Assembly: GCA_036399695.1 (NCBI GenBank) | Contig: DASWMP010000008.1 | Span: 1-63,193, forward strand | Source of the DNA: Thermoanaerobaculia bacterium | GTDB lineage: Bacteria > Acidobacteriota > Thermoanaerobaculia > Gp7-AA8 | DNA: 63,193 bases | Direction: 5' to 3' | In this document: positions 9,001 through 63,154 of the stretch, in pieces | How the letters are laid out: each line of letters starts with the position of its first letter | Numbering within the stretch: position 1 is the first letter of the stretch | Notes under the pieces: model-generated | What the model saw: only the letters and a program-made list of their open reading frames with translations | Database searches by the model: none | What the model was told of the DNA's origin: nothing | Made by a program: the position numbers and the translations under genes

Positions 9001-12000
9001 AGCATCGCCGACGCACACCACGCCGGGAACGCGTCAGCGATCGCCGCCCGCGCCATCTCCAGATACGCGGCGGAGGCAAGCCGTCTCGCACCGTGAGATC
9101 CCTCGAGGAAGAGCTCCTCCCCCGTGAAGGTCGAGCTGTAGCGCTGCTCGTTCAGATCGGACGTGTTGCTGTGCACCAGCGGATGCACGAACCCGCTCGC
9201 AACCTGTGTGGCCGCCACCTCACGAACAGCAGGCAGCTCCAGCCAGCAGCGTTCCTTCGCGAACGGATACACCGGCAGGCTCACGCGCGACGGCCTGGTC
9301 TCGCCGTAAAGCTTCGTCCAGTCCAGCTCCAGCCCTTTGACCCAGAGGTCGAGCAGCTTGCTGAACTTCCGATTGGCGATCCACTTGTCGACGGTCTGCT
9401 GCAGATCGGTGTCGGTACTGAAGGCGGACAGCGACTCGTTTTTCCGTTTCGCCTGCCCCTGATAAGCGCCGTCGATCCCCTGCTCGCCGGCCACATACGC
9501 GCGCAGCTTCTCGACCAGCTCTTCGGGCGAGCTCACGACGAAGCCGAGACGCTCGTCCATCGCTTCGCGGCCGGCCTGGAGCGTGTACGCCGTGGCCACG
9601 AGGTCGAGAGTGCTCAGGCGCGGGCGGACGAAGTCCAGCAGGTCCTGCGCTTTCTGTAGCAGTTGCTCGGGCGTCCTCGCCGAGAGCAGGATGGCCACGT
9701 TGCCACCCGCGGCCGGCTGGGCGGCCGGCGCCGCATACTCCTCGATGAGCAGGTGGGCGTTCGAGCCGCCGGCGCCGAACGACGAGAGGCCGGCGATGCG
9801 CGGCAACTGACGGCCGTCGATGACCGGCGGCTCCCACGACCTCAGCTCCTGATTGACGACGAAGGGGGTGCTCTCGAACTCGATGTGCGGGTTCAACTGC
9901 GCCGAGTGGAGCGACGGCACGAGCTGCCGGTGCTGCATCTGCAGCAGGATCTTGGTGAGGCCCGCGATGCCCGCGGCCGATTCGCAGTGGCCGATGTTCG
10001 ACTTGGCAGAGCCGATGAGGCAGAAGCCGGTGTCCTTCGTGTAGTGCTGGAAGGCGCGGGTGAGCGCGGCGATCTCGATCGGGTCGCCGAGCTTCGTCCC
10101 GGTGCCGTGCGCTTCGATGTAGCTGACGTGCCGGGCGTCGGTCTTCGATTCCGCCAGGGCCCGGCCGATGGCGCTGGCCTGCGCCTGCGGGTTCGGGACG
10201 GTGTAGCCGTTCGTCTTGCCGCCGTGATTGAGGGCGCTGCCGCGGATCACGCCGTAGATGTGGTCGCCGTCGCGCTTCGCGTCGGACAGCCGCTTGAGCA
10301 CGACCACGCCGACGCCCTCGCCCGGGATGTAGCCGTCGCCCCCTTCGCCGAAGCTCTGGCAGTGGCCGTCGCTGGAGATGAACTGCCCCGCGCTCAGCAC
10401 GAGGTACTTGTTCGGATGGATGCTGACGTTGACGCCGCCCGCGAGCGCGAGGCTGGTGCGCCCGAGCTTCAGGTCCTGACAGGCTACGTGGATCGCCGTC
10501 AGCGACGAGGAGCACATGGTGTCGAGCGTCATGCTCGGGCCGTGCAGGTTCAGCGCGTACGACACGCGGTTGGCGATGCTCGCCGCGCTTCCGGCCACTC
10601 CGATCCTCGTCCCGAGCGCGCTGGCCTCGGCTCCGAACAACTGATACTCGCTGTACATCACGCCGGCGTACACGCCGACCTGACCGGCGAGGTCGTCGTT
10701 CTGCGGCACCTGAAGGGTGGCACGGGTGTAACCGGCGTCTTCGATGGCCATCCAGGCGTGCTGCAGGAAGAGCCGCTCCTGCGGATCGATCTGCTTCGCT
10801 TCCTTCGGCGAGATGTTGAAGAAGAGCGCGTCGAACTCGTCGACACCGGCGATGAAGCCGCCCCACTTACTGTAGTGATGGCCCCCTTCCGTGCGGTCCT
10901 CACTAAAGTAGGCGCGCCAGTCCCAGCGCGACTTCGGGACTTCGGTGATGCAGTCCCTGCCGTCGCGGAGGTTGTTCCAGTAGGCCGCGAGATCGACGGC
11001 CTCCGGATAGCGGCCGCTCAGGCCGATGATGGCGATGGGCTCATCGTGAGAGGCGGCGGCTTGCGCCGGGCGCCTGACGGCGGAGCGGCCGTGCCGGCGG
11101 GGCAGCCGCTCGATGGGACCGATAGGACCGATGGGACCAATGGGACTAATGGGACTGATGGGGCTCTGCTCTTTGGCGGCAGGTGCTGCCACCAGCGCCG
11201 AGAGGCGCGCGGCGTGGGCCTGCGCAAAGTAGCGCGTCAGCTCGGCCATCGTGCGGTACTCGAAGAACAGCGTCTTCGGAAGTGAGCCGAACGTCTGTTC
11301 CAACTGGGTCGTGAGCTTGAGCGCGAGGATCGAGTCGATGCCGTACTTTTCCCACGGGGCCTCGGGGTCGATGCGATGGGCCGGTACCTTCAGCAGCCCG
11401 GCCAGTTCCTTGCGCAGGTACTCCTGCGTCTTCTCCGCGAGGCCATCGGCTGAGACAGCGACGGCCGATGCCGGCGTTGCGGCTTCGACCGGACGCTCGG
11501 CGCTCCCGAAGAGGAACGCACGCAGCCGCGCCGTATCTCCTTCGGCGACGAGCACCTGGTCGTGCGCCAGCGCCAGGCTGTGATGGAACGCCTGCAGTCC
11601 GGTGGCGGACTGCATCGGCTGTACGCCCATCGTGCGCTCCAGCACTTCCTGCGTGGCCGCGTCGATGCGCATCCCGCCGGCCTGCCAGAGCGGCCAGTTG
11701 ATCGAGCGCGTGCGGCCGTGGCGTTCGCCCGCCGCCACCTGCCGGTTGCGATGGGCGGCGAAGTGATCGAGGAAGGCGTTCGCTGCCGCGTAGTCGGCCT
11801 GCCCGACGTTGCCGATGGCACCGGCGAACGAGGAGAAGAGGACGAAGAAGTCGAGCTGAAGGTGGCGGCTGGCGTGGTCGAGATGGCAGGTACCGGTGAC
11901 TTTCGGGCCGAGGACTTCGGCGAATTCGCCGGCGGACTTTCTGAGGATGAAGTTGTCGGCGACGCGGCCGGCGCAGTGCAGGATGCCGTCGAGGCTCCCG

Positions 12001-18000: not shown

Positions 18001-21000
18001 GCGATCAGCAGGACCTTCGTCGACGGATCGTCCTGCACCTTCGCCAGCGCCTGCTTCAACTGGGCGATGACGGTGCGCGGGCTGGACGACGGCTCGAGGC
18101 GGATCGAGAAGAGGCCCTGGCCGTCGTCGAACAGCCGGACGGCCGGCGCGACCGCGGCGGCCACGCGGAGCGCGGCATTGACCAGCGTGATGGGCGCGCG
18201 TCCGGCGGACGGTGCGGGCACGCTAGCGCCCGGAGTCGCCAGAGAGATCGAGGGACGTTTCTTTCGCTCCGGCGCCACGGAGACAGCTTCGACCGGCGGC
18301 AGGAACGTCACTTCCGTGCGAGCGGGCGTGGCGGTGGCGCGGGCCGGTAACGGCGCCGCGGCCGGAGCTGTGGGCTCCTCGACCGCCATGACCGGACTCG
18401 CGCCATGCTGCAGGACCGCGCGTCCCTGGCAGTGGACCGTCTCCCGCTCCCCTTCGCGGCTGTAGATCTCGAAACCGATCTCCTCTTCGTCGCGCGGCAG
18501 CAGGGCGATGCAGACTTCGATGGCGGGCGTGACGGCGACCGGCTCGCCCCAGGCCACGTCGTGCAGTTCCAGATGCGTATCGTCCGGAATCGTGGCCGCC
18601 CGCTCGATCGCGGCGCGGGCCATCTCCAGGCAGGCTTCCGGCGGAAGGAGGGTCTGCCCGTTGGCGCTGGTGCGGAGGAACGATTCGTCGCCGCTGAACG
18701 TCGAGCTGTAGCTCTGCTGCCGCAGGTCGGAGGTGTTGCGGTGCAGCAGCGGGTGGAGCACCGCGGCCGTGGCCTGCTTCGCCGGAGCCGGCGCGACGGG
18801 CGGCGGCAGCTCGATCCAGTAACGGTCGCGGGCGAAGGGGTAGACCGGCAGGCTGACGCGGCGCGGCGTGACGCCGCCGTACAGCTTCTTCCAGTCGACG
18901 TCGAGGCCTTTCACCCAGACGTCGACGAGCTTCGCGAGCTTGCGCGAGGCGATCCAGCGGTCGATGGTCTGCTGCAGGTCGGCGTCGTTGCTGAAGACCG
19001 ACAGCGCTTCCCGGTTGCGCTTTACCTGTCCTTCGTAGACGTCCTCGAGACCCTGCCGGCCGCTCACGTACGCCTGCAGCTTCTCGGCGAGCTGGCCGGC
19101 CGAGGTGACGACGAAGGCCAGCCGCTCGTCCATCGCTTCCCGGCCGGTCTGCAGCGTCCAGGCCGTGGCGGCCAGGTCGAGCGTGTCGATGCGCGGGCGG
19201 AGGTACGCGAGCAGGTCGGCCGCTTTCTGCCGCAGTTGCTCCGGCGTCCTCGCGGAAAGGACGACCACCGCTTCCGGCAGCGCGACCGTACGCGCCGCCG
19301 GAACCTGGTACTCCTCGACGATCAGGTGCGCGTTCGCGCCCCCGGCGCCGAATGAGGAAATGCCGGCGATGCGGGGCTGCGTCTGCCCGTCGATCACCGG
19401 CTGCGCCCAGGGCCGCACCTGCTGGTTGACGACGAACGGCGTCGCCGCAAAGTCGATGTGCGGATTCAGCTCCGCCGAATGGAGCGACGGCACCAGCTCC
19501 TGATGCTCCATCTGCAGCAGGACCTTCGTCAGGCCGGCGATGCCGGCGGCCGACTCGCAGTGGCCGATGTTCGACTTGGCCGAGCCGATCGGGCAGAAGC
19601 CGGCCTCCTTCGTGTACTGGCTGAAGGCCTTGGTCAGCGCGGCGATCTCGATCGGGTCGCCCAGCTTCGTCCCGGTGCCGTGCGCTTCGATGTAGCTGAC
19701 GTGGCGCGCGTCGGTCTTCGATTCCGAGAGTGCGCGGGCGATGGCGCTGGCCTGCGCCTGCGGATTCGGCACCGTGTAGCCGTTGGTCTTGCCGCCGTGA
19801 TTGAGGGCGCTGCCGCGGATGACGCCGTAGATGTGATCGCCGTCCCGCTCCGCCTCGGAGAGCCGCTTCAGCACGACCACCCCGACGCCCTCGCCCGGGA
19901 TGTAGCCGTCGCCGCCTTCGCCGAAGCTCTGGCAGTGGCCGTCGCTGGAGATGAACTGGCCGGCGCTCAGCATCAGGTACTTGTTCGGATGAATGCTGAC
20001 GTTGACGCCGCCGGCGATCGCCAGGCTGGTGCGCCCCTGTTTCAGGTCCTGACAGGCGATGTGGATGGCCGTCAGCGACGAGGAGCACATCGTGTCGAGC
20101 GCCATGCTCGGGCCGTGCAGGTTCAGCGCGTACGAAACACGGTTGGCGATGCTGGCGGCGCTGCTGCCGATGCCGAGACGGTTGCCATTCGTGCTGGCGT
20201 CGAGCCCGAGCAACTGGTACTCGGTGTACATCACGCCGACGTACACGCCGGCCTGGCCGGGCAGATCGCCGGCATGCGGTACCTGCAGCCCCGCGCGCGT
20301 GTAGCCCGCGTCCTCGATGGCCATCCAGGCGTGCTGCAGGAACAGCCGCTCCTGCGGATCGATGTGCTTCGCCTCTTTGGGGGAGATGTTGAAGAAGAGC
20401 GGGTCGAATTCGTCGACCCCGGCGATGAAGCCGCCCCACTTGCTGTAGTGGTAGCCGGGCTGGGTCCGGTCCTCGTTGTAGTAGGTGCGCCAGTCCCACC
20501 GTTCTTTCGGGACTTCGATGATGCAGTCCTTGCCGTCGCGCAGGTTCTGCCAGTAGGCCTGGAGGTCCACCGCCTCCGGGTAGCGGCCGCTCAAGCCGAT
20601 GATGGCGATGGGCTCATCCTGCGGCGCCGGCGCTTGCGCCGCCGGCGTGGCCGGATTGTCCGTGCGGCGGCGGGCGGAGCGGCGGTTCTCCCGGGAGGGG
20701 AAAACGATGGGACCGATGGGACCAATGGGACCTATGGGTTTTTCATTGGTCCCACCGGTCTTCGCGGCAAACAGCGTCTCCAGCCGCGCGGAGTGCGCCT
20801 GCGCAAAATACCGCGCCAGCTCGCTCAGCGTCTGGTACTCGAAGAAGAGCGTCTTCGAGAGCGCGCCGAACGTGAGCTCCAGGTGGCCCGTGAGCTTCAT
20901 CGCCAGGATCGAGTCGATGCCGTAGGTCTCCAGCGCGGCCTCGGGGTCGATGCGGTGGTACGGGAGCTTCAGCAGCTCCGCGGACTGGCGGCGGAGATAC

Positions 21001-22709: not shown

Positions 22710-25700
22710 CTACCCCAGGTCGGCGGCGTCGTCGACCGAGACTTTGCGGCTGACGACGTCCGCCAGCAGGGTTTCGTAGAAGGCGAGGTCCACGGTCGCT
22801 TCGGGCTGGCGGTTGGCCTTGATCGGAATCCGCCCGGCGGTCGCCGGCGGGAACGGCGACTTGGTTTCACTCTCGAGGGCCCGCGAGGCCAGCCCCCGCA
22901 CCTGCACGCGGACGTTCCCCTGAGGATCGCACAGGTCGAGGTCGACGGTGGAGGTGCCGTTCTTCCCGTACCGCAGCCAGGCCACCATCTCCGCCGACGG
23001 CTCCGCCAGGATGCGCACCGACTCGACGGCGAACGGCACGGAGGGTTTGCCGGGCAGGTGGTCGAAGTCGACGAACAGCCCGAGGGAGGCCTGCAGGGCG
23101 CTGTCCATCAGGCTGGGATGGAGCACGTAGTCCTGCTGACTGCCCGCGACGCCCGCCGGCAGCCGTAGTTGCGCGAGCAGTTGCTGCTCGCCGAAACGGA
23201 TGCTCGTGATCCCCTGATGGGCCGGCCCATACTCCAGCCCCATCCTTCCGAACAGCTCGTAAACCTCGGCGGCGTCGAGCTGCCCGTCCCGCATCTCCCC
23301 GGCGAGGCGCACCAGGTCGATGGCCCGGACCGCCGCGTCAGGGCTGAAGAGCCCCTGCCCCTGGCAGTGCAGCGTCTCCTGCTCGCCGGCCAGGCTGTAG
23401 ATCTCGAAGTCGATCCGGTTCGCCCCGTTCGCCACCAGCGCGATCGAGACCGTGGCCGCGCCGGTGACGACGATCGGCTTCAGCCAGACGATGTTCTGCA
23501 GCTCGAGGACGCTCCCAGCCGCGGAGGCCGGTGAGGCCTGCACGATCGCCGCGCGGGCCATCTCCAGATAGGCCACGCCCGGCAGGACTGCCCGCGTCTG
23601 GCCGTTCGTGCGCACCTGATGGTCGGTGAGGAAGAACTCCGTGCCGTTGAAGGTGGTGGTGAAGCGCTGCTCGCTGAGGTCGGAGGTATTGCGGTGCAGC
23701 AACGGATGCAGCACCTCGACCGCCGCGGAGGAGGCCACCTGCACGTTCACGACAGGGTCGATCCAGCAGCGCTCTTTCGCGAAGGGGTAGGTCGGCAGGC
23801 TGACGCGCCGCGGCTTCTCCCCTCGGTACAACTGCTCCCACTCGATCTCCAGCCCCTTGACCCAGAGCTCCAGCAGCTTGGCCCATTTGCCCCGCTCGAG
23901 CCACTTGCCGACCGCCTCGCGCAGCTCTTCATCCCCTCGGAAGAGCGCCAGCGTCTCGCTGTTCCGCCGCACCTCGCCGCGATAGAGGCCGTCGATGCCG
24001 CTCTTGCCGTCGAGAAACGCGCCGAGCTTCGTCTCCAGTTCGTCCAGCGATCCGGCCGTGAAAGCCAGCCGGTGATCCATCGCCTCGCGGCCGATCTGTA
24101 ATGTATATGCGGCCGCGGCCAGGTCACTGGCCTGCACATCTCCGCGGGCGATGGCCTGGCGCAGATTGACGGCCTGCTCCTTCAGCCGCTCGCCGTCCTT
24201 CGCCGAAAGCACGATGACGGCGGGCCCGGTGGTGGCGGGAGACTGCACCGCGCCGCCGGCATACTCCTCCACCACCACATGGGCGTTGACGCCGCCGAAG
24301 CCGAACGAGCTCACGCCCGCCAGGAGCGGCCGTGCGCGTCCGGCTCCATCCTTCAACGGCCGCCACGGCTGATTCTCGCGGACGAGGTAGAAGGGGGTGT
24401 CCTCGAGGTGGATGTAGGGGTTGATCTCCTCGCAGTGCAGGCTGCGCACGAGCGTGCGGTGCTGCATCTGCAGGATGATCTTGATCAGCCCCGCGGCGCC
24501 GGCCGCCAGTTCGAGGTGACCGATGTTGGTCTTCACCGAGCCCAGTCCGCAGTAGCCGGTGGCCGGCGCTTCGCCGAGCTCCTCGTGCAGGCTGCGGAAC
24601 GCGCTGGTCAGGCCGTTGATCTCGATCGGATCGCCGAGAGGCGTACCGGTGCCATGAGCTTCGATGTAGGAGACGCTGGCGGGATTGACGCCGGCGCGGC
24701 GATAGGCGTCCTTGATCAGCTCCGCCTGCGCCTGGGGATTCGGCGCCGTCAGCGACTGCGCGCGTCCGCCGTGGTTCTCCGCGCTGCCGCGGATCAGGGC
24801 GTAGATGTGATCGCCGTCCCGCTCCGCCGCGCTCAGTTTCTTGAGCACGACCATGCCGACCCCTTCGCCGCGGGCATAGCCATCCGCCCGGCTCGAGAAG
24901 GTCTTGCACTTGCCGTCCGGGCTGAGCATGCCGGCCTTGTTGAAGCTGACGTGCAGCGTCGGGAAGAGCGTGTTGACGCCGCCGACGAGGGCCATGTCGC
25001 AGTCGTCGGCCAGAATCGCCCGCACCGCACGATGCACGGCCACGAGTGAGCTGGAGCAGGCCGTTTCAACCGGCTCGCTCGGCCCGTGCAGGTTCAGGAG
25101 GTAGCTGAGGCGGTTCGGGCCGACGGAGGGCACGAGTCCGGTCGCGGTGTAGCCCTCGATGCCGGTACCGTCGTGCGTCAGCAGCAGTTCGCCGTAGCCG
25201 GTGTTGGCCGTGCCGATGAAGACGCCGGTGCGGCTGCCCCACAACTGCTTCGGTCCGTATCCGGCGTCCTCGAACGCCTTCCAGCCGTACATCATGGTCA
25301 GCCGGTGCTGCGGGTCCATGCGCTCCGCTTCGCGCGGGGAGATGCCGAAGAACAGCGGATCGAACTCGTCGACCCCGTCCATGAAGGCGCCCCACTTCAC
25401 GCTGCTCCGGTTGCCGTCTTCTTTCTCGTCGGCATAGAGCGCTTCCCAGTCCCACCGGCTCTTCGGAATCTCCACGACGCTCTGCCGGCCTGCCAGGAGG
25501 TTGGCCCAGAAGGCGTGCAGGTCGTCGGCGCCGGGGAAGCGTCCGCTCATGCCGATGATGGCAATGGGCTCGGCGTGCTGCGGCGCCGGTGCTGCCGCGG
25601 CCGTGGTGGCCGTCGTGGCAGCGGCCTGCGCTCTGCCGCGCTTCCGTCCAAGTCGCGCGTCGCGTGCCGCGACCGGCGCCGGCGCTTCGCTTCTTCCCAT

Positions 25701-28700
25701 CGGTCCCATGGGTCCCATAGGGCCCATAGGTCTCTCGCGGCTCACGCTGAGCCCGAGCTTCTCCACCAGCCGCTCCGCGTGATGCTCCGCCAGGTATCGG
25801 GCAAACGCCCGCACCGTCGGGTGCTCGAAGAAGATCGTCGGCATCAACTCCAGCCCGCAGGCGCGGTTCACATGGTTGGCAAAGCCCGTCAGGCTGATCG
25901 AGTCGAACCCGAATTCGCTCAGCTCCGCGTCGAGATCGACATCCTCTTTCTTCACCTTGAGCAGCGTGCCGACGGCGTCGACGAGCCACTTTTCGATGCT
26001 CTCGCGCAGCTCCGCACGGTCGCGTGGTGCCTCGCTCCCGACGACGCGCGCCGTCTGCGGAACCGGCATCGCCGGTGCGGCCGTGCGCCCCAGCAGCTTC
26101 TCCACAAGCTTCGCGCCGTGCGTCTTCGCCAGATGAGCGGCGAAGGCGCGCACGGTCGGATGCTCGAAGAACACCGTCGGCATCAGCGCAAGGCCGAAGG
26201 CCTGATTGACGTGGTTGGCCAGGCCGGTGAGGCTGATGGAGTCGAACCCGAACTCGCTCAGCTCCGCGTCGGGATCGACGTCCTCTCTCTTTACCTTGAG
26301 CAGCAGGACGACGGCTTCGGCGAGCCAGCTTTCGATCTTGGGCAGTAGCGCTGCTTCGTTAGGCGCACCGCTCTGCGCAGGGGCGGGGGCGATGGTACCG
26401 ATGGGACTGACAGGACTGATAGGACCCATGGGAAGAGACGCGGTGACGGGCGCGGTCACCGGCACGGTCGCACGACGTTTGTGCCGGATCACGCCGTTGC
26501 TTTCCGCGATGATGATCTGCTGCCCCAACCCGTACGCGCCATGCGCGGGGAAGGAGACGTGGCCGAAGCCTTCCTCCTCCAGCACTGCTTTCCAGCTCGT
26601 GTCCGTGAGGCCGGGGCTGCCTTCGATGCGCAGCTCCGGATCGGCGTAGGCCCACCAGCCTTCCAGCAGCCCGAAAGTGAGGTGCATGAAGGCGCTGTTG
26701 GTGCTGATCTCGTTCAGCACGAGGATGCCGTTCTTCTTCAGCGCCGCTTTCGCATTGCGCAGCGTGTCGCGCATGCGCTGCGTGGCGTGCAGCACGTTCG
26801 CGGCGAGGACGACGTCGTACGCACCACGCTCGACGCCCTGCTCATCGAGGCTCTTCTCCACGTCCACCACGGCGTAGCGCAGGTAGTCACGTCCGGCGCC
26901 GTAAGCGTTCTCGCCATGCACGAGGAACCACTTGGAGACGTCGCTGTAGCAGTACTCCCGGACGTGCGGGCGATAGTCGTCCAGCTTGCGCAGGAGCCCT
27001 TCGCTGCTCCCGCCGGTGCCGGCGCCCAGCTCCAGCAGACGCAGATTGAGAGAGGCGTCCTCGCGGGCGCCACGCTCCTCGACGTACCAGCCAACGACGT
27101 CGGCCATCACGCCGTTGAAGTAGTCGGCCACGCTGTTGTTCTTGTAGACCGCGCCCACGAGGTCCAGCGAGGAGCTCGGGAAGATGACGTCCGTTGCCCG
27201 CCGCTCGCCGCGCAGGATGGGCCGGAGGCTGCGCATCGTGGCGTCGACCAGCTTCACGTGAGCCTGCATGCCGGGGTGGGCTTCGGACCAGCGCCCCGTT
27301 TCCTGCTCCCACTCGCGCCAGAGTTGTCCGGCGTCCGCTGTTGCATCGAGCGAAGCGCCGTGTGCGGCGAGGAGGCGCAGGGTCTCTTGCGTCCAGCGCT
27401 CGTAGGCGCTGATGATGCCGGCCGGTGTTGCGGCGACCGCGCCGGCGGGATTGCTTCCGAGGGTGGCCATCTCCGCCGCCAGCAGCTTCACCAGCATGGC
27501 GTCGAGCTCCTGGCGCTCCTGCTGCCACGACGGCGGCCATTCGCGCACGTCGCGTTCCGCCAGCAGCGTGGCGGAGACGGAGGGCGCGTCCTGGCGGGCG
27601 ACCGTCAGGGCCTCCCCTTCCGACACGCCGAGTGCCCGCAACGCTTCCGGTCCGTTCGTCCGGAGCAGGCCGGCCCGATCGAGCGGTCCGCTCAGAAGCT
27701 GCTCCAGGCCGGCCATCGCTTCTTCGGCCTCGAGCGAGCCCCAGCCCATGCGGGCCATCCGCTCCTGATGCTCGGGCGCCGCCACGACGCCGACGCTCCC
27801 CCAGTAGCCCCACTGCATGACCTTCACCGGATACGCCGCCGTGGCCGACTGCCAGTCGGCAAAGGCATCGGTGAACGTGCAGCCGGCGGCGTAGTTGCTC
27901 TGCCCCGGCGCCTTGAGGAAGCTCTGCAACGAGGAGAAGTAGAGGACGAAGTCGAGCGGGTCCTGGCCGAACACCTGCGCCAGACGGACCGAGACGTCCA
28001 CCTTGGCGGCGAGCGCCGCACGGAACTGCTCTTCGGTCATGTTCGCCAGGCTTTTGTCGATGAGGACGATCGCCGAGTGGATGACGCCGTCGATGCGGTT
28101 GTAACGCTCCAGGATCAGCTCGCGCGCCCGCTCCAGCTCCTCGCGGCTCGTCGCATCCGCCGCGATGTAGAACGGACGTTCGCCACGTCCGCGCACGACC
28201 CGTTCCTGCGCCGCGGCGATGGAGGCGTCCTTCTCCCGCCGCCCGATCCAGGCCACGCGCGCGTCGTAGTTGGCGATGAGGTACTCGCTGAGGACTTCGC
28301 CCACGCCACCGGCGCCGCCGATCACGACGTACGCCCCTTCGGGCCTGAACTTCGGCTGGGGAGCCGGCGCCGAGGCGCATTCCACCAGCAGCTCGCGATA
28401 CCACTGGCCGTCGCGATGGGCCCAGCCGTCGCCGCGCGCATCGAACGGCAACCGCGCGACGTCCGTCCACGGCACATCGCCGTCGACGTCGACGAGCCGC
28501 ACGTTCCAGTTCCGGTACTCCTTGGCCATCGACCCGAGCAGCCCGCGCACGCTGGCGTGGGCCGGGTCGATCGCCTCGCCGCGACGGACCTGCTGCGTCG
28601 CGTTCGTGATGACCGTCCAGGCCAGCTCGCCGGCGCCGTAGCCGTCGCGCAGCAGCGCCTTGATCAGGCGGAACCCGAAGAGCACGCCGTGCTCCTGGGC

Positions 28701-31700: not shown

Positions 31701-34700
31701 CGCGCCGGGGAAGCGGCCCGCCGCGCTGACGATGGCGATGTCGTCCTGGTTCTGGCGAGCGCTGCTCACAGCTTCCGGAGCGCGTGCGCCGTCATGTTGT
31801 TCGGGCTCGCTCTGCGTCGCGACCACGCGCCGTTCGCTCACCGGTACGGCCGGCAGCGCCGCCAGCAGCTTCTCGCGATGCATGTCCAGGAAGTAGGCGC
31901 TCAGTTCGTCGATCGTCCGGTACTCGAAGAACAGCGTCTTGGACAGCGGCCCGAAGACGTGCTCGAAGATCTCGTTCAGCTCCACGACCATCACGGAGTT
32001 GACGCCGTACTGGTCGAAGCCCGTCTGGACGTCGAGCTCCCCCTCGGCGACGCCGATCGACGGCGCGATGAGGGACCGGAAGTAGGCACGCGCGCGGTCG
32101 TCGAGCTGTTCACCTGCTCCCATAGGTTCCATAGGTCCCATAGGTCCCATGGCGGGCTGAGCGACGGGCGTGATCTCGGCTGCCGGCGCCGGCTTCTCCG
32201 CGCCACGGGTCAGCACGTCCGCGTGATGCAGGACGAAGTAGCCGGCCAGCTCGGTGATGTTCCGGTATTCGAAGAAGAGCGTCTTCGGGAGCGGCCCGAA
32301 CACCTCTTCGAAGCTCTGGTTCAGCTCGACCACCATCACCGAGGTGACCCCGTAGTCGTCGAACTGAACGGAGAAGTCGATCTCGTCGGCCGCTAAGCCA
32401 ATCGGACCGGCCACGAGCGATCGGATCAGCTCCTGAGCGGCGGTGGCCAGCACTCCCTCTGCCAGCGGAGTCCGGGACGCGCTCTGCACCACTCTCGCTC
32501 CATGTGCCGCGGCGGCGCCCTGCTTCAGCGCGCGGATGGCGAAGCCGGTCAGGCGGACGACGACCTCACCGTCCATCCGGCAGACGTCGAGATCGAACTT
32601 CCTCATCTCCTCATTGCGGAGGTTGGCGGGCCGGGGCCGGCAATAGACGTAGCACTCGGCCGGAATTGGCGCGAGCACCTCGAGGTCGTCCATGCCGATC
32701 GGTACGTACCAGCGGTCGTTGCCGCTGCTCCGCTTGTTGCTGACGAGCGCCGTCTGGAACGCACCGGTCAGCAGCGCGGGATGCAGCACGTAATCGTCGA
32801 TCGTCCCGGCGACCTCCGCCGGCAGTACCAGCTTCCCCAGCGCCTCGGTATCGCTGAGCGAGATCTGCTGCATCGGCTGGAACGTCGTGCCGACGATGAG
32901 CCCCTCACCGCGGATCTGCCCGTAAACCTGCGCCGGATAGCGGGTCTCGTCACAACGCGCGGTCACGACGGCTACGTCGATCCGCGAATCGGCCGCCTTT
33001 GCCGGGTCGCCGGGCGTGACTTGCCCCATCGCGTGCAGGCGCTTCTCCCCGTCCGGCCCGAAGCTCACGACTTCATACGCGAGCTGATCGTCCTTTTTCG
33101 TGATCTGCACGTGCGCGCTGAAGTCTTCGGCCGGCGACGAGAGCGGGCTGGCCCAGTAGTTGTGCGTCAGCCTCCTGGCCACGCCGGTGCCGAGCACGAG
33201 ATCGGCCGCCTGCCGCGCCATCTCCACGTAGCAGGCGCCGGGCATGTTGTACTGCCCGTCGACGACGTGGTCGCGCAGGTAGAACTCGGCGGTCTTGAAG
33301 ACGCGGCTGAACCGGAGCTGCTGCCGGTCCGAGCGGTCGACGTCGATGAGGGAGCGGTTCCACCGCGCCACATCGCCGTTCGCTGCGACCGGCTCCGCTT
33401 TCCCGATGGCAATGAGGTGCGCGGCGAGCTTGTCGACGGTGTCGAGATCGAAGAAGAGCGTCGGCTTCAGATCGGCGCCGAAGTGCTTGTTGACGTCGTT
33501 GGTGACGCCGAGGAGCGCCGCGGAATCGAGACCGAGCTCACCGAGCGTGCGTCCGCCGGCGATGGCGTTGGGTGCGAGTCCCAGGTATCCGGCGAAGATC
33601 GTCTTGAGCTCGCGCTGAAGCCGGGCGAGCGGAGCTTCGGCCTCGGGTTGCGCCTGTGCTACGCGCACCGGCTGGTCGAGCCCGAGGCAACGTTCGATCT
33701 TTGCTTTGTCTCCGTCGAGGGCGATGAGCTGGTGCGTCTCGGGGAACGTCTGCTTCGCGAGCGCCAGTGCGGTCTCGAAGATGGCCACCCCGTCCGCGGT
33801 CGGCAGCGGCTTCATGCCGAAGACGCGCAGCAGATGGCGCTCCTCTTCGGCAGTCACGCGCATGCCACCCTGCGCCCACAGCGGCCAGTTGATCGCCAGG
33901 CTCACGCCTGAGCGGCGCTGCTCCGCCGCCAGCTCGTTCCGCACTTGCGTGAAGCTGTCGAGGAAGCTGTTCGCGGAGGCGTAATCGGACTGTCCCTGGT
34001 TGGGCATCACCGCGGCGATGGACGAGAAGACGACGAAGAAATCGAGCGGCTCGTCGCGCGTGAGGTCATCGAGGTTCAGCGCGCCCTCGATCTTCGGGGC
34101 GAGCACGCGCGCGAACGAGTCGTGCTGCTTGCGCAGGATGAACGCATCCTCGATGACGCCCGCCGCGTGAATGACACCGTCGATGGCGGGATGGACGGTC
34201 TTGATCTCCGCGAGCACGGCGGCGAGGGCGTCGCGATCGGTGATGTCGACGCTGAAGTAGTGACACTTGCCGCCGGCGCTCTCGATGTCGGCGATCTTCG
34301 CGGCGATCGCGTCAGTCATCGCGCTGCGGCCGAGCCAGAGGACCGTGGCGCCGTACGTCGACGCGAGATGCCGTGTGAAGACGGAGCCGAGGCCGCCGTT
34401 GCCGCCCGCGACGACGTAGACGCCCTTGCGCTTCAACAGCGGGGCCGCGGCATCGCCACCCTGAGCCGCCTCATGAACGATCCGGCGCACGTGACGTTCT
34501 CCACCGCGATACAGCACCTCGCGCAGCGCCGGCGCGTCCGCGGCCGCGGCCAACTCCAGCGACACGGTGCGAGCCAGCTCGTCGGCGGAGAGACCGTCGA
34601 CGCCAAGCGTCACGTAATCGAAGTTCGGGTTCTCGTACTTGAGCGTCCTGGCGAAGCCGCCGACCGTCGCATGGACCGCGCGGGTGAAGTCGTGTCCGAG

Positions 34701-41572: not shown

Positions 41573-59302
<17,730 letters not shown>

Positions 59303-59306
59303 GTGA

Positions 59307-59314
59307 CCTTCCTC
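59307..59314 (-). promoter_or_regulatory. Shine-Dalgarno-like GAGGAAGG for the main NRPS (supports the ATG at 59302)
   Basis: The minus strand reads GAGGAAGG-TCAC-ATG-GAA-ACC. Confidence 0.55.
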
Positions 59315-59394
59315 GAGATGACGCATCCGCCGGCCGGTTCGCCGGGGATGCCGGGTGAGTTGCTGAATGGGGGGAGTACGCCGCGGGCGGGAGG

Positions 59395-59773
59395 CTAAGT
59401 TTTGCGTGCCGGAGACAAAGCTTTGAGTCCCGGGGTCAAAGCTTTGAGTCGCGGAGTCAAAGCTTTGAGTCGTGGAGTCAAAGCTTTGAGTCGCGGAGTC
59501 AAAGCTTTGAGTCGTGGAGGCAAAGTTTTGACTCCCGGAGGCAAAGTTTTGAGTGGCGGAGTCAAAGTTTTGAGTGGCGGAGTCAAAGCTTTGACTCCCG
59601 AGGCAAAAGTTTTTGAGTCCCGAGGCAAAGCTTTGAGTCGCGGAGTCAAAGCTTTGAGTCGTGGAGTCAAAGTTTTGCGCCCTGAGTCAAAGTTTTGAGT
59701 GGCGGAGACAAAGTTTTGAGTGCGGGAGGCAAAGCGTTGGGTGCGAGGGTCAAAGCTTTGAGTCAAAGCGTTG
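59395..59773. repeat. tandem array of about 18 units of 21 bp, consensus TCAAAGCTTTGAGTCGYGGAG
   Basis: Read directly from the sequence. The units are head-to-tail, and each carries the 12-bp palindrome TCAAAGCTTTGA (variant TCAAAGTTTTGA). The array abuts the stop codon of the upstream NRPS relic and ends 93 nt upstream of the ATG at 59302. Confidence 0.95.
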
Positions 59774-62700
59774 TCACAGCTTCACCTGCCCCAGGTATTC
59801 GATGTTGCCATCGTCCAGCCAGCGGCCGCGGTCACCGGTTTTGTACATGCGGGTGCCGGGGACGAAAGGATTCGGAACCCACTTTTCCTGCGTGAGGCGG
59901 GCGCGGTTCAGGTAGCCGCGCGGCAGACCGTCTCCCGACACGTGCAGCTCGCCGGCGACGCCGACCGGTTGCGGACGACTGCCGCGGTCGAGAATGTAGA
60001 TGCGTGTGTTGTCCACCGGCCGGCCGATGGGGATGACGGCGCGATCGAGCGTGGAGCAGTCGTACGACGTGGCGTCGATCGCCGCCTCGGCCGGACCGTA
60101 AACCTGATGCAGGACGGCCTTCGGGAATGTCGCCCGGCAGCGCTCGGCCGAGGCGCGGTCCAGGCCTGCGCCGGTGCAGAAGACCCGGCGGACGGTTTCG
60201 AACGTATCGCCGGTCTCGGCGAGGAACGTGCGCAGCAGCGAGGGGGTGAAATGCACGGCCGTTGCTTTCGAATCGGTGAGCACCCCCGCCAGCGGCGCCG
60301 AGGAAGCGATCGTGACGGACGCCCCGGCGGTGAGGGGCCAGAAGAGCTCCCCTACCGCGGTGTGGGAGGCGTGGGATGCGTGCTGTAGCAGGACGTCGTG
60401 GGCGTCGAGCGGATGACGGCGCTGCATCGAGCTGACCCGGTTCACCAGTGCCCGATGTTCGACGACGACGCCTTTCGGCTTCCCTTCCGCTGCCGCGGGA
60501 TAGACGACATAGCAGGCGCTCGCGGCTGAAGCGTCGTCGCGGAGCAACACACCCTGCGTTTTCAGCGCGGCGGCGCGGCGGACGATCTCCCCCCACTGGC
60601 GGTCGAGCACGACCAGCTTCGCGTTCGGTGCGAGCAGCGGGGCGAGCTTGTACCGGCAGGACTCCTGCGTCAGGACGACGGCGGCCTGACTGTCCTGGAG
60701 GACGTACGTGAGCTGCTCCTCGGCATCGGCCGGATCGAGCGGCAGATACGTCCCACCGGCTCTGACGACGCCGAGTGCGCCGATGGCCAGGTCGAAGGAG
60801 GGCTCGACGCAGACGGCCACGACGCTCTCCGCCGTCACGCCGAGCGCCTGCAGATACAACGCAAGCTCGCCGCTCTTGTCGGCGAGGGCCTGGTAGCTCA
60901 GTGGGTGTCCGGCGACGGTCACGACCGTCCTCGACGGAGCGGCGGCGGCCTGCGCGGAGAAGAGCTGGTGGATGGAGCGGTCGCGCGGATAGTCGGTGTC
61001 GGTGCTGTTGAAGCCGACGAGCAACTGCTGCTTCTCCACTTCGGTGACGCATTCGAGCGCCCGGATCTTCGTGGTGGGCCTGGCGGCGATGGCGCGGCAG
61101 AGCGAGGTGAAATGTACGCCGAGGCGGGCGATGGTTTGCGGCGTGTAGCGGGCGGCGTCGGTCAGGCGGAGGCAGAGCGCTGAACGCAGCGGGGCGGGCG
61201 CTTCCTGCGTCATCAGCAGCGCCGGGAAATCGCCTGCGGCCTCGGGCGCCGCGGCCTGGTGCGCGTAGGCCTCGTCGCAGGTCTTCTTCACCTGCGAGAG
61301 CAGCGCGGAGAAGGTGTCTTCAGGCTCGATGCGGCTGCGGAGCGGCAGAAGGCGTCCGCCGCCGGCGGTCACGACGCAGATGTCGCTTTCGCCGGTGTAG
61401 CGATGGAGCAGCACCTTGAACGCCGCCAGGAGGATCATGAAGAGGGACGCGCCTTTGTGCTGCGCCACCGCTTCAAGCTGGGCGGACACGTCGGCATCGA
61501 GGTCGAATGTGTAGCTGCCGGCGACAGGGTCGCTGCTCGTGCGCGGATGGTCGGCCGGCAGTTCGAGACGCTCCGGCAGGCCGCTGAGCTTCTGCTGCCA
61601 GTACGCGCGGCCTTGCTCGAAGAGCCGCGACGCGGCGAGCTGCTGCTGCTCCTGCTCCGTCAGCATCGGGAGCTCGTGCACCGCCAGATCAGGACTGGCA
61701 CCGAACCCCCGCAGCAGGACGGCATAGTGCCGGTACAGCGCTTCGATCGTCTCGCGCGAATAGAGGTCGGGGTTGTACTTGAGGTGGACGCTGAACGCAG
61801 ACCCCTGCGCCTCGTAGATTTCGAGGCCCAGCTCGAAGTCCCCTTCCTGCCAGATGCCCGGGACGTTCTCGAGCTGAAACAGCTCCTGCTGCAGCATCGA
61901 CATGAAGTCCGCGGGGTTGACGAAGTTCTGGTAGGCGTACGAGACGCGGAAGATCGGTGCGTTGTCACGCCGCGTCGACCTGAGCCCTTCGACGATCAGC
62001 GGGAAGGGGAAGCTGGAGTGGTAGAGCGCGTCCAGCATCGTTCCCTGCACTTTGCGCATGAACTGCTTGACCGTCAGCGGCGCGCCGCAGTGCACCCGCA
62101 GCGGCACCATGTTGATGAAGTAGCCGACCTCCGTCGCGAACTCCTGCGACGGCCGTCCCATGACCGGCATGCCGACGATGACGTCGTCCTGGTTCGAGTA
62201 GCGATGCAGCAGGAGCTGGAAAGCGGCGAGGAAGATCACGGACGGCGGCACCGCGTGCGCTTTGCTGAAATCGCGCGCCCATGCGCCGAGGTCTTGCGGC
62301 AGGTCAGTGACGAGCGTGTCGCCGGAGAAGGTTGTCTGCTGCGGGCGCTGCGTGCCCGGCAGGAGCTCGAACAGCGGCAATTCGCCGTCGAGCTGTTGTT
62401 GCCAGTAGCGCGCGTGCGCGGCGCCTTCGGACGATGCGAGCATCGCCTCTTCCCAGGCGACGAACTTCTGATAGCCGGGCAGCGGCTGCACCGGCCGCGG
62501 CGAAATGCCTTCGATCAGTTGCTGGTAACAGTCGAGGAGCGCCTTGAGCACGAGCACGGCCGAAGCGCCGTCGATGATGATGTGGTGCACGGTGAGCAGG
62601 AGGACCGGCTTCTCGTTCGCGCGGGCGAACAGCTCGATGCGCGTGAGCGGCCCGCGCTCGAGATCGAAGGGCTGCTTGGCGCGCGACTGCAGGAACGGCA

Positions 62701-63154
62701 GCAGTTGTGCGTCGCCGAGGGCAAGCGTCTGGTGCTGAAGTGACGTGCGGCAGGAAGCGTCGACGCGCTGGTAGAGGGCGCCGTCGCGCTCGATGACTCT
62801 CGCGGTGAGGATCGGGAGCTCGTCGAGCACGCGGTCCCACGCTTCCGCCAGCACGGCGGGATCGATGTCCGCGTTGATCCGGAAGCAGAGCGGCACGTTG
62901 TACGCGCTCATCCCGGGATTCATCTTCTGCAGGATGTACAGCCCCTTCTGCCCCGCGGAGAGCGGGAACTCGACGGGCGTGACGTCCTCCGCCTGCAGGA
63001 AGGCGATGAGCTCCGGCTTGAGACGGACGATGCCGTCGCGCAGCTCCTGCGTCAGCGCACCCTTCTGCGCGTAGCAGCTCAACTGACCGGCATGGGCAGA
63101 CAGCTTCACCCCATTGCTGGCCAGCTTGCGGAGAAGCTCGTTGACGGTTTCCAT
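59774..63154 (-). CDS. decayed, 3'-truncated NRPS module (dock-C-C remnant-degenerate A; no carrier domain); possible pseudogene
   Basis: The ORF is open to the window edge (GTG at 63187). The ATG at 63154 gives METVNELLRKLASNGVKLSA..., paralogous to the start of the downstream NRPS. It contains a docking domain (63154-62993) and a complete C domain with intact HHIIIDG (62567-62587). Next comes only the C-terminal half of a second C domain, with internal deletions (about 61627-60953). The A domain has ruined core motifs: YPAAAEGKPKG instead of YTSGSTGxPKG (60470-60502), HTAVGE instead of FDVSVWE, and GPAEA instead of GPTEA. The protein stops at ...EYLGQVKL, before motifs A8-A10, and has no T domain. 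Confidence 0.85.
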   Translation of the reverse strand: METVNELLRKLASNGVKLSAHAGQLSCYAQKGALTQELRDGIVRLKPELIAFLQAEDVTPVEFPLSAGQKGLYILQKMNPGMSAYNVPLCFRINADIDPAVLAEAWDRVLDELPILTARVIERDGALYQRVDASCRTSLQHQTLALGDAQLLPFLQSRAKQPFDLERGPLTRIELFARANEKPVLLLTVHHIIIDGASAVLVLKALLDCYQQLIEGISPRPVQPLPGYQKFVAWEEAMLASSEGAAHARYWQQQLDGELPLFELLPGTQRPQQTTFSGDTLVTDLPQDLGAWARDFSKAHAVPPSVIFLAAFQLLLHRYSNQDDVIVGMPVMGRPSQEFATEVGYFINMVPLRVHCGAPLTVKQFMRKVQGTMLDALYHSSFPFPLIVEGLRSTRRDNAPIFRVSYAYQNFVNPADFMSMLQQELFQLENVPGIWQEGDFELGLEIYEAQGSAFSVHLKYNPDLYSRETIEALYRHYAVLLRGFGASPDLAVHELPMLTEQEQQQLAASRLFEQGRAYWQQKLSGLPERLELPADHPRTSSDPVAGSYTFDLDADVSAQLEAVAQHKGASLFMILLAAFKVLLHRYTGESDICVVTAGGGRLLPLRSRIEPEDTFSALLSQVKKTCDEAYAHQAAAPEAAGDFPALLMTQEAPAPLRSALCLRLTDAARYTPQTIARLGVHFTSLCRAIAARPTTKIRALECVTEVEKQQLLVGFNSTDTDYPRDRSIHQLFSAQAAAAPSRTVVTVAGHPLSYQALADKSGELALYLQALGVTAESVVAVCVEPSFDLAIGALGVVRAGGTYLPLDPADAEEQLTYVLQDSQAAVVLTQESCRYKLAPLLAPNAKLVVLDRQWGEIVRRAAALKTQGVLLRDDASAASACYVVYPAAAEGKPKGVVVEHRALVNRVSSMQRRHPLDAHDVLLQHASHASHTAVGELFWPLTAGASVTIASSAPLAGVLTDSKATAVHFTPSLLRTFLAETGDTFETVRRVFCTGAGLDRASAERCRATFPKAVLHQVYGPAEAAIDATSYDCSTLDRAVIPIGRPVDNTRIYILDRGSRPQPVGVAGELHVSGDGLPRGYLNRARLTQEKWVPNPFVPGTRMYKTGDRGRWLDDGNIEYLGQVKL

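What the first reader, a model, noticed from the sequence alone, without database searches (positions are those of the whole stretch)
59395..59773. An array of about 18 21-bp units, each with a 12-bp palindrome, replaces the 3' end of an NRPS module and sits about 90 nt upstream of the main NRPS start
Seen directly: 59395-59773 is built from head-to-tail 21-bp units with consensus TCAAAGCTTTGAGTCGYGGAG. Each unit contains the perfect palindrome TCAAAGCTTTGA or the variant TCAAAGTTTTGA. Units ending CGCGGAG and CGTGGAG alternate (59436-59519 and 59622-59663), which gives a 42-bp higher-order period. Because 21 bp is two helical turns, every palindrome faces the same side of the helix. The tract is visibly more AT-rich than the rest of the window. 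The upstream adenylation domain breaks off exactly here (...WLDDGNIEYLGQVKL-stop). The canonical continuation YLGRxDxQVKIRGxRIELGEIE, the rest of the A domain and the carrier domain are all missing. The last codons plus the stop (plus strand TCACAGCTT) look like a degenerate unit. Inference: this could be a phased operator array for a dimeric DNA-binding protein that gates transcription into the downstream operon of about 59 kb. Alternatively it could be a slippage-prone minisatellite that arose at, or caused, the deletion joint. I know of no described array of this form in front of an NRPS gene, but I cannot search.
Basis: partly seen in the sequence, partly recalled or inferred. Interest (0 to 1): 0.78.

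Follow-up and report, generated by a model that had tools for sequence, protein, structure and literature searches.

The report
Intergenic 21-bp minisatellite between NRPS genes
The 18-copy 21-bp repeat is real, but it looks like a lineage-specific, neutrally decaying tandem repeat in the spacer between two co-directional peptide-synthetase genes, and neither a regulatory operator array nor the scar of a deletion.

Summary
The array is real. It spans 59390-59773 with period 21, 17.9 copies and GC 0.51 against 0.67 for the window, and no copy occurs elsewhere in the window.

It is not an assembly artefact. An orthologous locus from another metagenome (L069, flanking protein 86% identical) has a 16-copy array at the same position with the same majority unit.

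- **The truncation is not linked to the array.** The upstream protein stops at the A8 hinge (…YLGR) in all 8 homologous clusters examined. It is under purifying selection (dN/dS about 0.2). Six of those clusters have unique spacers of 78-357 bp and no array.
- **The palindrome is not conserved.** The 10-nt core is intact in 14 of 17 window units but only 3 of 16 L069 units. Identity between the two arrays (0.69) equals the neutral expectation from synonymous sites (0.70). The L069 period is 43 bp.

A similar 21-bp array lies between convergent genes in another Thermoanaerobaculia genome, where no gene start faces it. No σ70-type promoter match, regulator gene, Rfam, plasmid or phage match was found.

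Best reading: a non-coding minisatellite in a probably transcribed spacer. Interest is low.

The parts
59390..59773 (.). Tandem array of about 18 units of 21 bp. The sense-strand (minus) majority unit is CTCCGCGACTCAAAGCTTTGA. It is non-coding.
   Evidence: TRF; unit table; no copies elsewhere in the window; orthologous array in L069 at 5240-5581.
59436..59519 (.). Two identical 42-bp blocks (units ending CGCGGAG and CGTGGAG). They record a recent block duplication. A third copy with one mismatch lies at 59625-59666.
   Evidence: Unit listing; matches with 0-1 mismatches.
59774..63154 (-). Upstream gene of 1126 aa: TubC_N docking domain, full C domain, partial C domain and adenylation core, ending at the A8 hinge. 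It has no A-sub subdomain and no carrier domain.
   Evidence: Pfam; translation; the same end point in 7 homologues; dN/dS 0.15-0.28 against L069.
59303..59375 (-). Conserved leader of the downstream gene. It holds a hairpin at 59323-59351 (sense GCAUCC-CCGGC...GCCGG-C-GGAUGC) and the Shine-Dalgarno sequence GAGGAAGG.
   Evidence: 86% identity to L069 over 71 nt, against 75% at four-fold sites; alignment; the hairpin appears in the predicted fold.
41573..59302 (-). Downstream NRPS, which begins with a TubC_N docking domain, C and A. The true start is the ATG at 59302 (METV...). The ATG at 59326 used by the JGI gene call is out of frame in L069.
   Evidence: Pfam; gene calls; sequences.

Best explanation
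The array is a non-coding minisatellite. A 21-bp unit with a hairpin-prone dyad core (TCAAAGCTTTGA) was amplified in tandem inside the pre-existing spacer between two co-directional NRPS genes. This happened in the common ancestor of the window's organism and the L069 organism, both probably Thermoanaerobaculia.

**Shown.**
- The array is absent from six more distant homologous clusters.
- Both arrays keep the same majority unit.
- Their units have diverged from one another at the synonymous-site rate.
- The window lineage has added recent 42-bp block duplications.

**Inferred.**
- Amplification and turnover occur by slipped-strand mispairing or unequal recombination of one- and two-unit blocks.
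- The array is carried on a polycistronic mRNA as an untranslated, C-rich, hairpin-forming spacer.
- Its only likely effect is to separate translation of the two genes. The downstream gene keeps its own conserved leader hairpin and ribosome-binding site.
- No sequence-specific partner is needed.
For: - **The array is real and inherited.** L069 comes from a different sample and its flanking protein is 86% identical. It carries a 16.1-copy array starting 24-30 nt after the orthologous stop codon.
- **Same ancestral unit.** The majority unit is identical in the two arrays, 21 of 21 positions.
- **Neutral decay.** Mean unit-pair identity is 0.693 between the arrays and 0.683 within L069. The proportion of synonymous differences in the flanking gene is 0.299, so the neutral expectation is about 0.70.
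- **Loss of the core.** CAAARYTTTG is intact in 14 of 17 window units but only 3 of 16 L069 units.
- **Satellite-type block structure.** The window has identical 42-bp blocks, L069 a 43-bp super-period and L023 a 63-bp super-period.
- **Not coding.** 43 is not a multiple of 3, and the ORFs across the L069 array are fragmented.
- **Dispensable.** L070, L072, L073, L074, L077 and L079 have the same gene pair with unique spacers of 78-357 bp and no array.
- **Comparable arrays lie in unrelated contexts.** L023 lies between a GidA/TrmFO-family gene and a convergent methyltransferase gene. Other arrays in other phyla lie next to unrelated genes.
- **The genome is repeat-prone.** NRPS linkers carry in-frame 9-bp repeats encoding (PIG)n and (PMG)n.
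Against: - About 340-375 bp of AT-enriched DNA has been kept at a similar copy number (16 against 18) in both lineages over dS of about 0.38. That could reflect selection for the array's presence or length rather than for unit sequence.
- The 21-bp period equals two helical turns. Of the arrays recovered with a 19-23-bp search window, nearly all have periods of 21-22 bp, which hints at a structural or protein-binding constraint.
- The L023 unit shares TCGYGGA and the same C/T polymorphism with the window unit. This suggests a shared source or partner, although it is not statistically compelling.
- There are no read-level, transcript or binding data.
Confidence: 0.6

Rival explanations
1. The array is an RNA-level cis element. 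Transcribed with the operon, it forms a run of hairpins, because adjacent 12-nt palindromes pair across the 9-nt spacer. It is also a C-rich, G-poor untranslated tract. This could set the expression ratio of the two genes by protecting the upstream mRNA 3' end, by sequestering the downstream ribosome-binding site with its CUCC motifs, or by Rho-dependent polarity.
For: The window RNA folds far better than shuffles (-185.8 against -127.6 kcal/mol, z = -9.7), and L069 does so weakly (z = -2.9). The sense-strand C/G ratio is 2.07 in the window and 1.41 in L069. The plus-strand GC skew is +0.28 over the array. The array-free homologues L072 and L073 show GC-rich inverted repeats, read by eye, in the same spacer (sequences).
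Against: The structure signal comes from the palindromes, which are lost in L069 (3 of 16 cores intact). There is no covariation and no Rfam match. The tract is strongly structured, whereas Rho loading sites are unstructured. No terminator-like site was found on the sense strand.
Confidence: 0.17
2. The array is a DNA-level phased binding array (operator, roadblock or nucleoid-protein site) for a dimeric protein that controls entry into the downstream NRPS.
For: The window has perfect 12-bp palindromes at 21-bp spacing. Arrays recovered with the same core in other genomes mostly have 21-22-bp periods. The array lies about 90 nt from the start codon.
Against: Cores are not conserved in the orthologue (3 of 16), and units decay neutrally. 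In L069 the spacer part CTCCG.GAC is better conserved than the right half of the palindrome. L069 phasing drifts between 21 and 22 bp. There is no σ70-like promoter, no regulator gene among the window's small ORFs and no single site elsewhere in 63 kb. Homologous clusters lack the array. The L023 array lies between gene 3' ends.
Confidence: 0.12
3. The array is a tandemly amplified copy of a dispersed REP/MITE-like palindromic element family of Thermoanaerobaculia, deposited here by a mobile-element mechanism.
For: The L023 unit (CAAAACTTTGCCTCGYGGASS) matches the window unit at 15-17 of 21-22 positions. GACTCCSGGAG occurs in one window unit and on both flanks of the L023 array in inverted orientation.
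Against: There are no single copies in the window or in roughly 150 kb of related loci. The scan of 185,579 species genomes found only one Thermoanaerobaculia locus. The units are in direct, not alternating, orientation. No transposase lies nearby. The similarity outside the selected core is only 7 of 11 positions (my estimate: p about 0.04-0.07).
Confidence: 0.07
4. The array, or its copy number, is an assembly artefact.
For: The sequence is a metagenome contig. The upstream gene starts 39 nt from the contig end. Some similar arrays in other genomes sit at contig ends (L028, L060).
Against: An independent assembly from another sample has a diverged array at the same site. The units are heterogeneous enough to be assembled.
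Confidence: 0.03

Closest known systems
Bacterial minisatellites/VNTRs, e.g. mycobacterial MIRUs (from my own knowledge)
   Same: Head-to-tail non-coding units of tens of bp in an intergenic spacer between co-directional genes. Higher-order blocks and lineage-specific copy number and variants are also shared.
   Different: MIRU units are 46-101 bp and carry small ORFs that overlap the flanking stop and start codons. Here the unit is 21 bp, has a dyad core, and has no conserved ORF.
REP/BIME palindromic elements of enterobacteria (from my own knowledge)
   Same: Short imperfect palindromes in transcribed spacers just after stop codons, able to form RNA hairpins.
   Different: REPs are dispersed at hundreds of loci and alternate in orientation within clusters. 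Here there is a single direct tandem array and no dispersed copies were found.
Iterons and centromere-like or operator arrays, e.g. R6K and RK2 iterons, R1 parC, omega-repressor heptad arrays (from my own knowledge)
   Same: Direct repeats phased at about one or two helical turns. Some have internal dyad symmetry.
   Different: Those arrays sit on plasmids or phages next to rep or par genes, and their sites are conserved. Here the locus is chromosomal NRPS DNA, there is no match in plasmid or viral collections, and the cores decay neutrally.
SARP-type heptamer direct repeats upstream of antibiotic gene clusters in Streptomyces (from my own knowledge)
   Same: Phased direct repeats in front of biosynthetic genes.
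   Different: SARP sites are 2-3 heptamers at 11-bp spacing that overlap a -35 region. Here there are 18 units of 21 bp and no promoter evidence.

Membership tests
Bacterial minisatellite / VNTR | Head-to-tail copies of a 10-100-bp unit with no unique spacers | tested here: met
   Period 21, 17.9 copies. Units are contiguous.
Bacterial minisatellite / VNTR | Signs of slippage or unequal exchange: identical adjacent blocks and higher-order periods | tested here: met
   Identical 42-bp blocks in the window. Super-periods of 43 bp in L069 and 63 bp in L023.
Bacterial minisatellite / VNTR | Non-coding | tested here: met
   The L069 period of 43 is not a multiple of 3. ORFs are fragmented. No gene was called there by JGI. 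The window's 123-aa ORF has no Pfam hit.
Bacterial minisatellite / VNTR | Copy-number polymorphism between strains | tested here: inconclusive
   17.9 against 16.1 copies in two diverged lineages. No population or read data are available.
Bacterial minisatellite / VNTR | Unit sequences free to drift, with no site-specific constraint | tested here: met
   Between-array identity is 0.693 against a neutral expectation of 0.70. Cores are intact in 14 of 17 window units against 3 of 16 L069 units.
Operator / iteron array for a dimeric DNA-binding protein | Binding sites conserved at orthologous loci | tested here: not met
   3 of 16 cores are intact in L069.
Operator / iteron array for a dimeric DNA-binding protein | Association with a promoter or origin | tested here: not met
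   No σ70-like site (other promoter types are not covered). Homologous loci lack the array. The L023 array lies between convergent genes.
Operator / iteron array for a dimeric DNA-binding protein | Strict helical phasing | tested here: inconclusive
   Mostly 21 bp in the window, with 20-, 22- and 13-bp exceptions. L069 alternates 21 and 22 bp.
Operator / iteron array for a dimeric DNA-binding protein | Cognate DNA-binding protein and demonstrated binding | not testable with these tools
   No regulator was found among the window's small ORFs. The other 57 kb of the source contig were not visible.
REP/BIME-type dispersed palindromic elements | Many dispersed intergenic copies in the same genome | tested here: inconclusive
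   None in the 63-kb window or in related loci. Only one Thermoanaerobaculia locus was found in the species-genome scan. The source genome itself is not available.
REP/BIME-type dispersed palindromic elements | Alternating orientation of units within clusters | tested here: not met
   All units are in direct orientation.
CRISPR array | Repeats separated by unique spacers of similar length, with cas genes nearby | tested here: not met
   Units abut one another and the 9-nt 'spacer' is itself repeated. The window holds only NRPS, MatE and oxidoreductase genes.
MIRU-like intra-operon repeats | Unit ORFs overlapping the flanking stop and start codons (translational coupling) | tested here: not met
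   The upstream frame has in-frame stops. There is no start codon in the frame that runs into ATG 59302. Frames are broken in L069.

The most novel reading that the evidence does not exclude
Tandem arrays of 21-22 bp built on a CAAA-NN-TTTG dyad core recur in Acidobacteriota, Chloroflexota, Bacteroidota and Alphaproteobacteria, often with 15-20 copies. They could form an undescribed class of phased binding arrays for a widespread dimeric or nucleoid-associated protein. The copy here would then act as a roadblock or insulator between two NRPS genes, selected for its presence and length rather than for each unit.
Probability: 0.08. Interest if true: 0.6.

Novelty: new member of a known kind. Interest (0 to 1): 0.25.

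Why it matters
There is little direct consequence. The result removes a tempting regulatory story from an uncultured acidobacterial NRPS cluster.

It also shows that the 'broken' adenylation domain is a conserved feature of a cluster family, not damage. If the minority readings were right, the array would be a handle on how very long NRPS operons are insulated or tuned.

The recurrence of 21-22-bp dyad-core arrays across phyla would deserve a systematic survey.

Tried and rejected
- **Coding repeat.** The frames read TQSFDSx or PRLKALT. I rejected this because the L069 period is 43 bp, the ORFs are fragmented, and there is no Pfam hit.
- **Deletion scar.** Rejected because the truncation is shared by all 8 homologues and is under purifying selection.
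- **Known RNA family.** Only sub-threshold miRNA-like noise was found.
- **Plasmid or phage iteron.** There was no blastn hit in 72,556 plasmids and no pattern hit in IMG/VR.
- **Unit-by-unit orthology between the window and L069.** There is no diagonal signal; identity is about 0.70 at every shift.
- **Terminal inverted repeats around the arrays.** Only partial inverted units and a terminator-like hairpin next to L023 were found. Nothing was found beyond array self-complementarity in the window.
- **Literature searches.** I searched by the core sequences and by '21-bp tandem repeat'. These returned primers or unrelated papers.
- **A third orthologue through the downstream NRPS N-terminus.** The best hit was 57% identical, so there was none.
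- **The metagenome pattern scan.** It did not return the source contig. It found only L068, the same locus as L023, and the AT-rich array L067.

Full report
**1.

- Tandem Repeats Finder reports one strong array in the window: 59390-59764, period 21, 17.9 copies, 82% matches, score 382. A 13-bp partial-unit duplication at 59749-59773 reaches the stop codon of the upstream gene.
- Units are spaced 21 bp apart, with a few exceptions of 20, 22 and 13 bp.
- The 12-mers TCAAAGCTTTGA (7 copies) and TCAAAGTTTTGA (2 copies) occur only here. With up to 2 mismatches there are 16 hits against 0.6 expected, all inside the array. The 21-mer gives 10 hits against 0 expected.
- GC is 0.51 against 0.67 for the window.
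- 59436-59477 and 59478-59519 are identical 42-bp blocks.
- All genes lie on the minus strand.
- The upstream ORF (59774-63154) has a TubC_N docking domain, a full C domain, a second partial C match and the complete Pfam AMP-binding core. It has no AMP-binding_C and no carrier domain, and it ends ...DDGNIEYLGQVKL*.
- The downstream NRPS starts at 59302 with its own docking domain.

**2. Source and relatives**

- The window is the last 63 kb of JGI contig Ga0334956_000012 (sample 3300034139). The upstream gene begins 39 nt from the contig end.
- The best protein hits are Thermoanaerobaculia (Acidobacteriota) MAGs.

**3. The truncation is ancestral and selected, not a consequence of the array**

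- Four homologues with the same architecture (P0002 at 86%, the other three at 56-59% identity) all stop at the same residue...LGR plus 0-7 aa.
- Three longer homologues (dock-C-A-C-A core, 1521-1625 aa) also stop at or just after that hinge.
- Against L069, dN/dS is 0.15 for dock plus C, 0.28 for the partial C and 0.21 for the A core, with dS about 0.38. The protein is therefore maintained, not decaying.
- Six of the eight loci (L070, L072, L073, L074, L077, L079) have unique spacers of 250, 165, 78, 104, 357 and 82 bp and no tandem repeat.
- The array therefore neither replaced the 3' end of a module nor caused the joint.
- 'QVKL' in the window is most simply a short read-through into repeat-like DNA, because L069 ends ...YLGR*.

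**4. The array is inherited but decays neutrally**

- L069 (sample 3300063151) carries an array at 5240-5581, starting 24-30 nt after the orthologous stop. It has period 21 with a 43-bp super-period, 16.1 copies and 64% matches.
- The majority unit is identical in both arrays: CTCCGCGACTCAAAGCTTTGA on the sense strand.
- Mean unit-pair identity is 0.764 within the window, 0.683 within L069 and 0.693 between the two.
- The proportion of synonymous differences in the flanking gene is 0.299, and four-fold-site identity is 0.75.
- This fits a homogeneous array at the time of the split, followed by independent neutral decay. The window lineage has added recent block duplications.
- There is no unit-by-unit orthology signal.
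- The 10-nt dyad core survives in 14 of 17 window units but only 3 of 16 L069 units. In L069 every second unit reads CAAAGCATTAC.
- By contrast, the 71 nt just upstream of ATG 59302 are 86% identical. They contain a hairpin (59323-59351) and the Shine-Dalgarno sequence, so that segment is constrained and the array is not.

**5. The array is not coding and not a known RNA, plasmid or phage element**

- The two open frames of the consensus follow from the repeat itself.
- In L069 the 43-bp period breaks every frame.
- There is no Pfam hit, no Rfam family, no plasmid match and no hit in viral contigs.

**6. Other arrays of this form**

- I scanned 185,579 species genomes for three CAAAGYTTTG cores spaced 9-13 nt apart. 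The scan did not find the source genome.
- It did find a 15.3-copy 21-bp array in a Thermoanaerobaculia MAG (L023, the same locus as L068). Its unit, CAAAACTTTGCCTCGYGGASS, shares TCGYGGA and the same C/T polymorphism with the window unit.
- That array lies between the 3' ends of a GidA/TrmFO-family gene and a convergent methyltransferase gene, so no gene start faces it.
- Similar 21-bp arrays occur in Anaerolineae, Bacteroidota and Alphaproteobacteria next to unrelated genes.
- Prevotella sp. P3-122 has about 45 loci carrying a 22-bp version.
- The pattern selected for the core, so only the spacer similarity to L023 (7 of 11 positions) is independent evidence, and it is weak.

**7. Regulatory reading**

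- No σ70-like promoter and no sense-strand terminator was found in 58800-60300.
- The window's small ORFs encode a MatE transporter and an FAD oxidoreductase; the third has no Pfam hit. None is a regulator.
- In the homologous clusters a PKS gene, the truncated gene and the NRPS follow one another at 12-20 bp and then 78-357 bp. This indicates one operon.
- The window RNA folds far better than shuffles (z = -9.7), but L069 does so only weakly (z = -2.9). The signal is therefore the palindromes themselves.

**8. Verdict**

- This is a lineage-specific non-coding minisatellite in an intra-operon spacer (confidence 0.6).
- A weak RNA-level role (0.17) or a DNA-binding role (0.12) is not excluded.
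- It is a new member of a known kind, and interest is low.
- The more notable by-product is the conserved NRPS protein that ends at the adenylation hinge.

Noticed in passing
window 59774-63154 (-); L069 1737-5210; L070 10001-13561; L072 915-4337; L073 10001-13318; L074 6001-10878; L077 6001-10566; L079 6001-10674: A conserved NRPS protein family (dock-C-[A]-partial C-A core) always ends at the A8 hinge (...YLGR). It has no A-sub subdomain and no carrier domain. In the window protein the P-loop is degenerate (YPAAAEGKPKG) and dN/dS is about 0.2. It looks like a maintained pseudo-module or platform, not a pseudogene.
   Followed up: partly
L069 5784-6380 compared with window 57500-59302 (-): After the identical docking domain, the L069 downstream NRPS runs straight into an A domain. 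The window gene has a full C domain (about 480 aa) in between. This is a module-level indel right next to the array.
   Followed up: no
window 59303-59375 (-), hairpin 59323-59351: The leader has a conserved hairpin and the Shine-Dalgarno sequence GAGGAAGG. It is 86% identical to L069, above the four-fold-site identity of 75%. The JGI start at 59326 lies inside the hairpin and is out of frame in L069, so the real start is 59302.
   Followed up: partly
L023 950-1269 (same locus as L068 6849-7168): A 15-copy 21-bp array with a 63-bp super-period lies between convergent GidA/TrmFO-family and methyltransferase genes in a Thermoanaerobaculia MAG. It is followed by a perfect 12-bp-stem hairpin at 1289-1314.
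   Followed up: partly
L001-L065 (Prevotella sp. P3-122, contigs NZ_NPJH01…): About 45 intergenic loci carry 4-9 tandem copies of a 22-bp unit with the palindrome GCAAAGCTTTGC. This is a dispersed tandem-repeat family in one gut Prevotella genome, and related ones occur in other Prevotella and Parabacteroides genomes.
   Followed up: no
L020 4866-5493; L063 1466-1861; L060 3-425; L028 1-308; L067 883-1297; L041 2858-3218: Long 21-bp arrays (10-30 units, often with 63-bp super-periods) with CAAA-NN-TTTG-type cores occur in Bacteroidota, Anaerolineae and an AT-rich metagenome contig. Several sit between convergent genes or at contig ends.
   Followed up: partly
window 11111-11162, 20705-20738, 25695-25732, 32118-32150 (-): In-frame 9-bp tandem repeats in NRPS interdomain linkers encode (PIS/PIG)n and (PMG)n tripeptide runs. 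They recur in two of the NRPS genes.
   Followed up: partly
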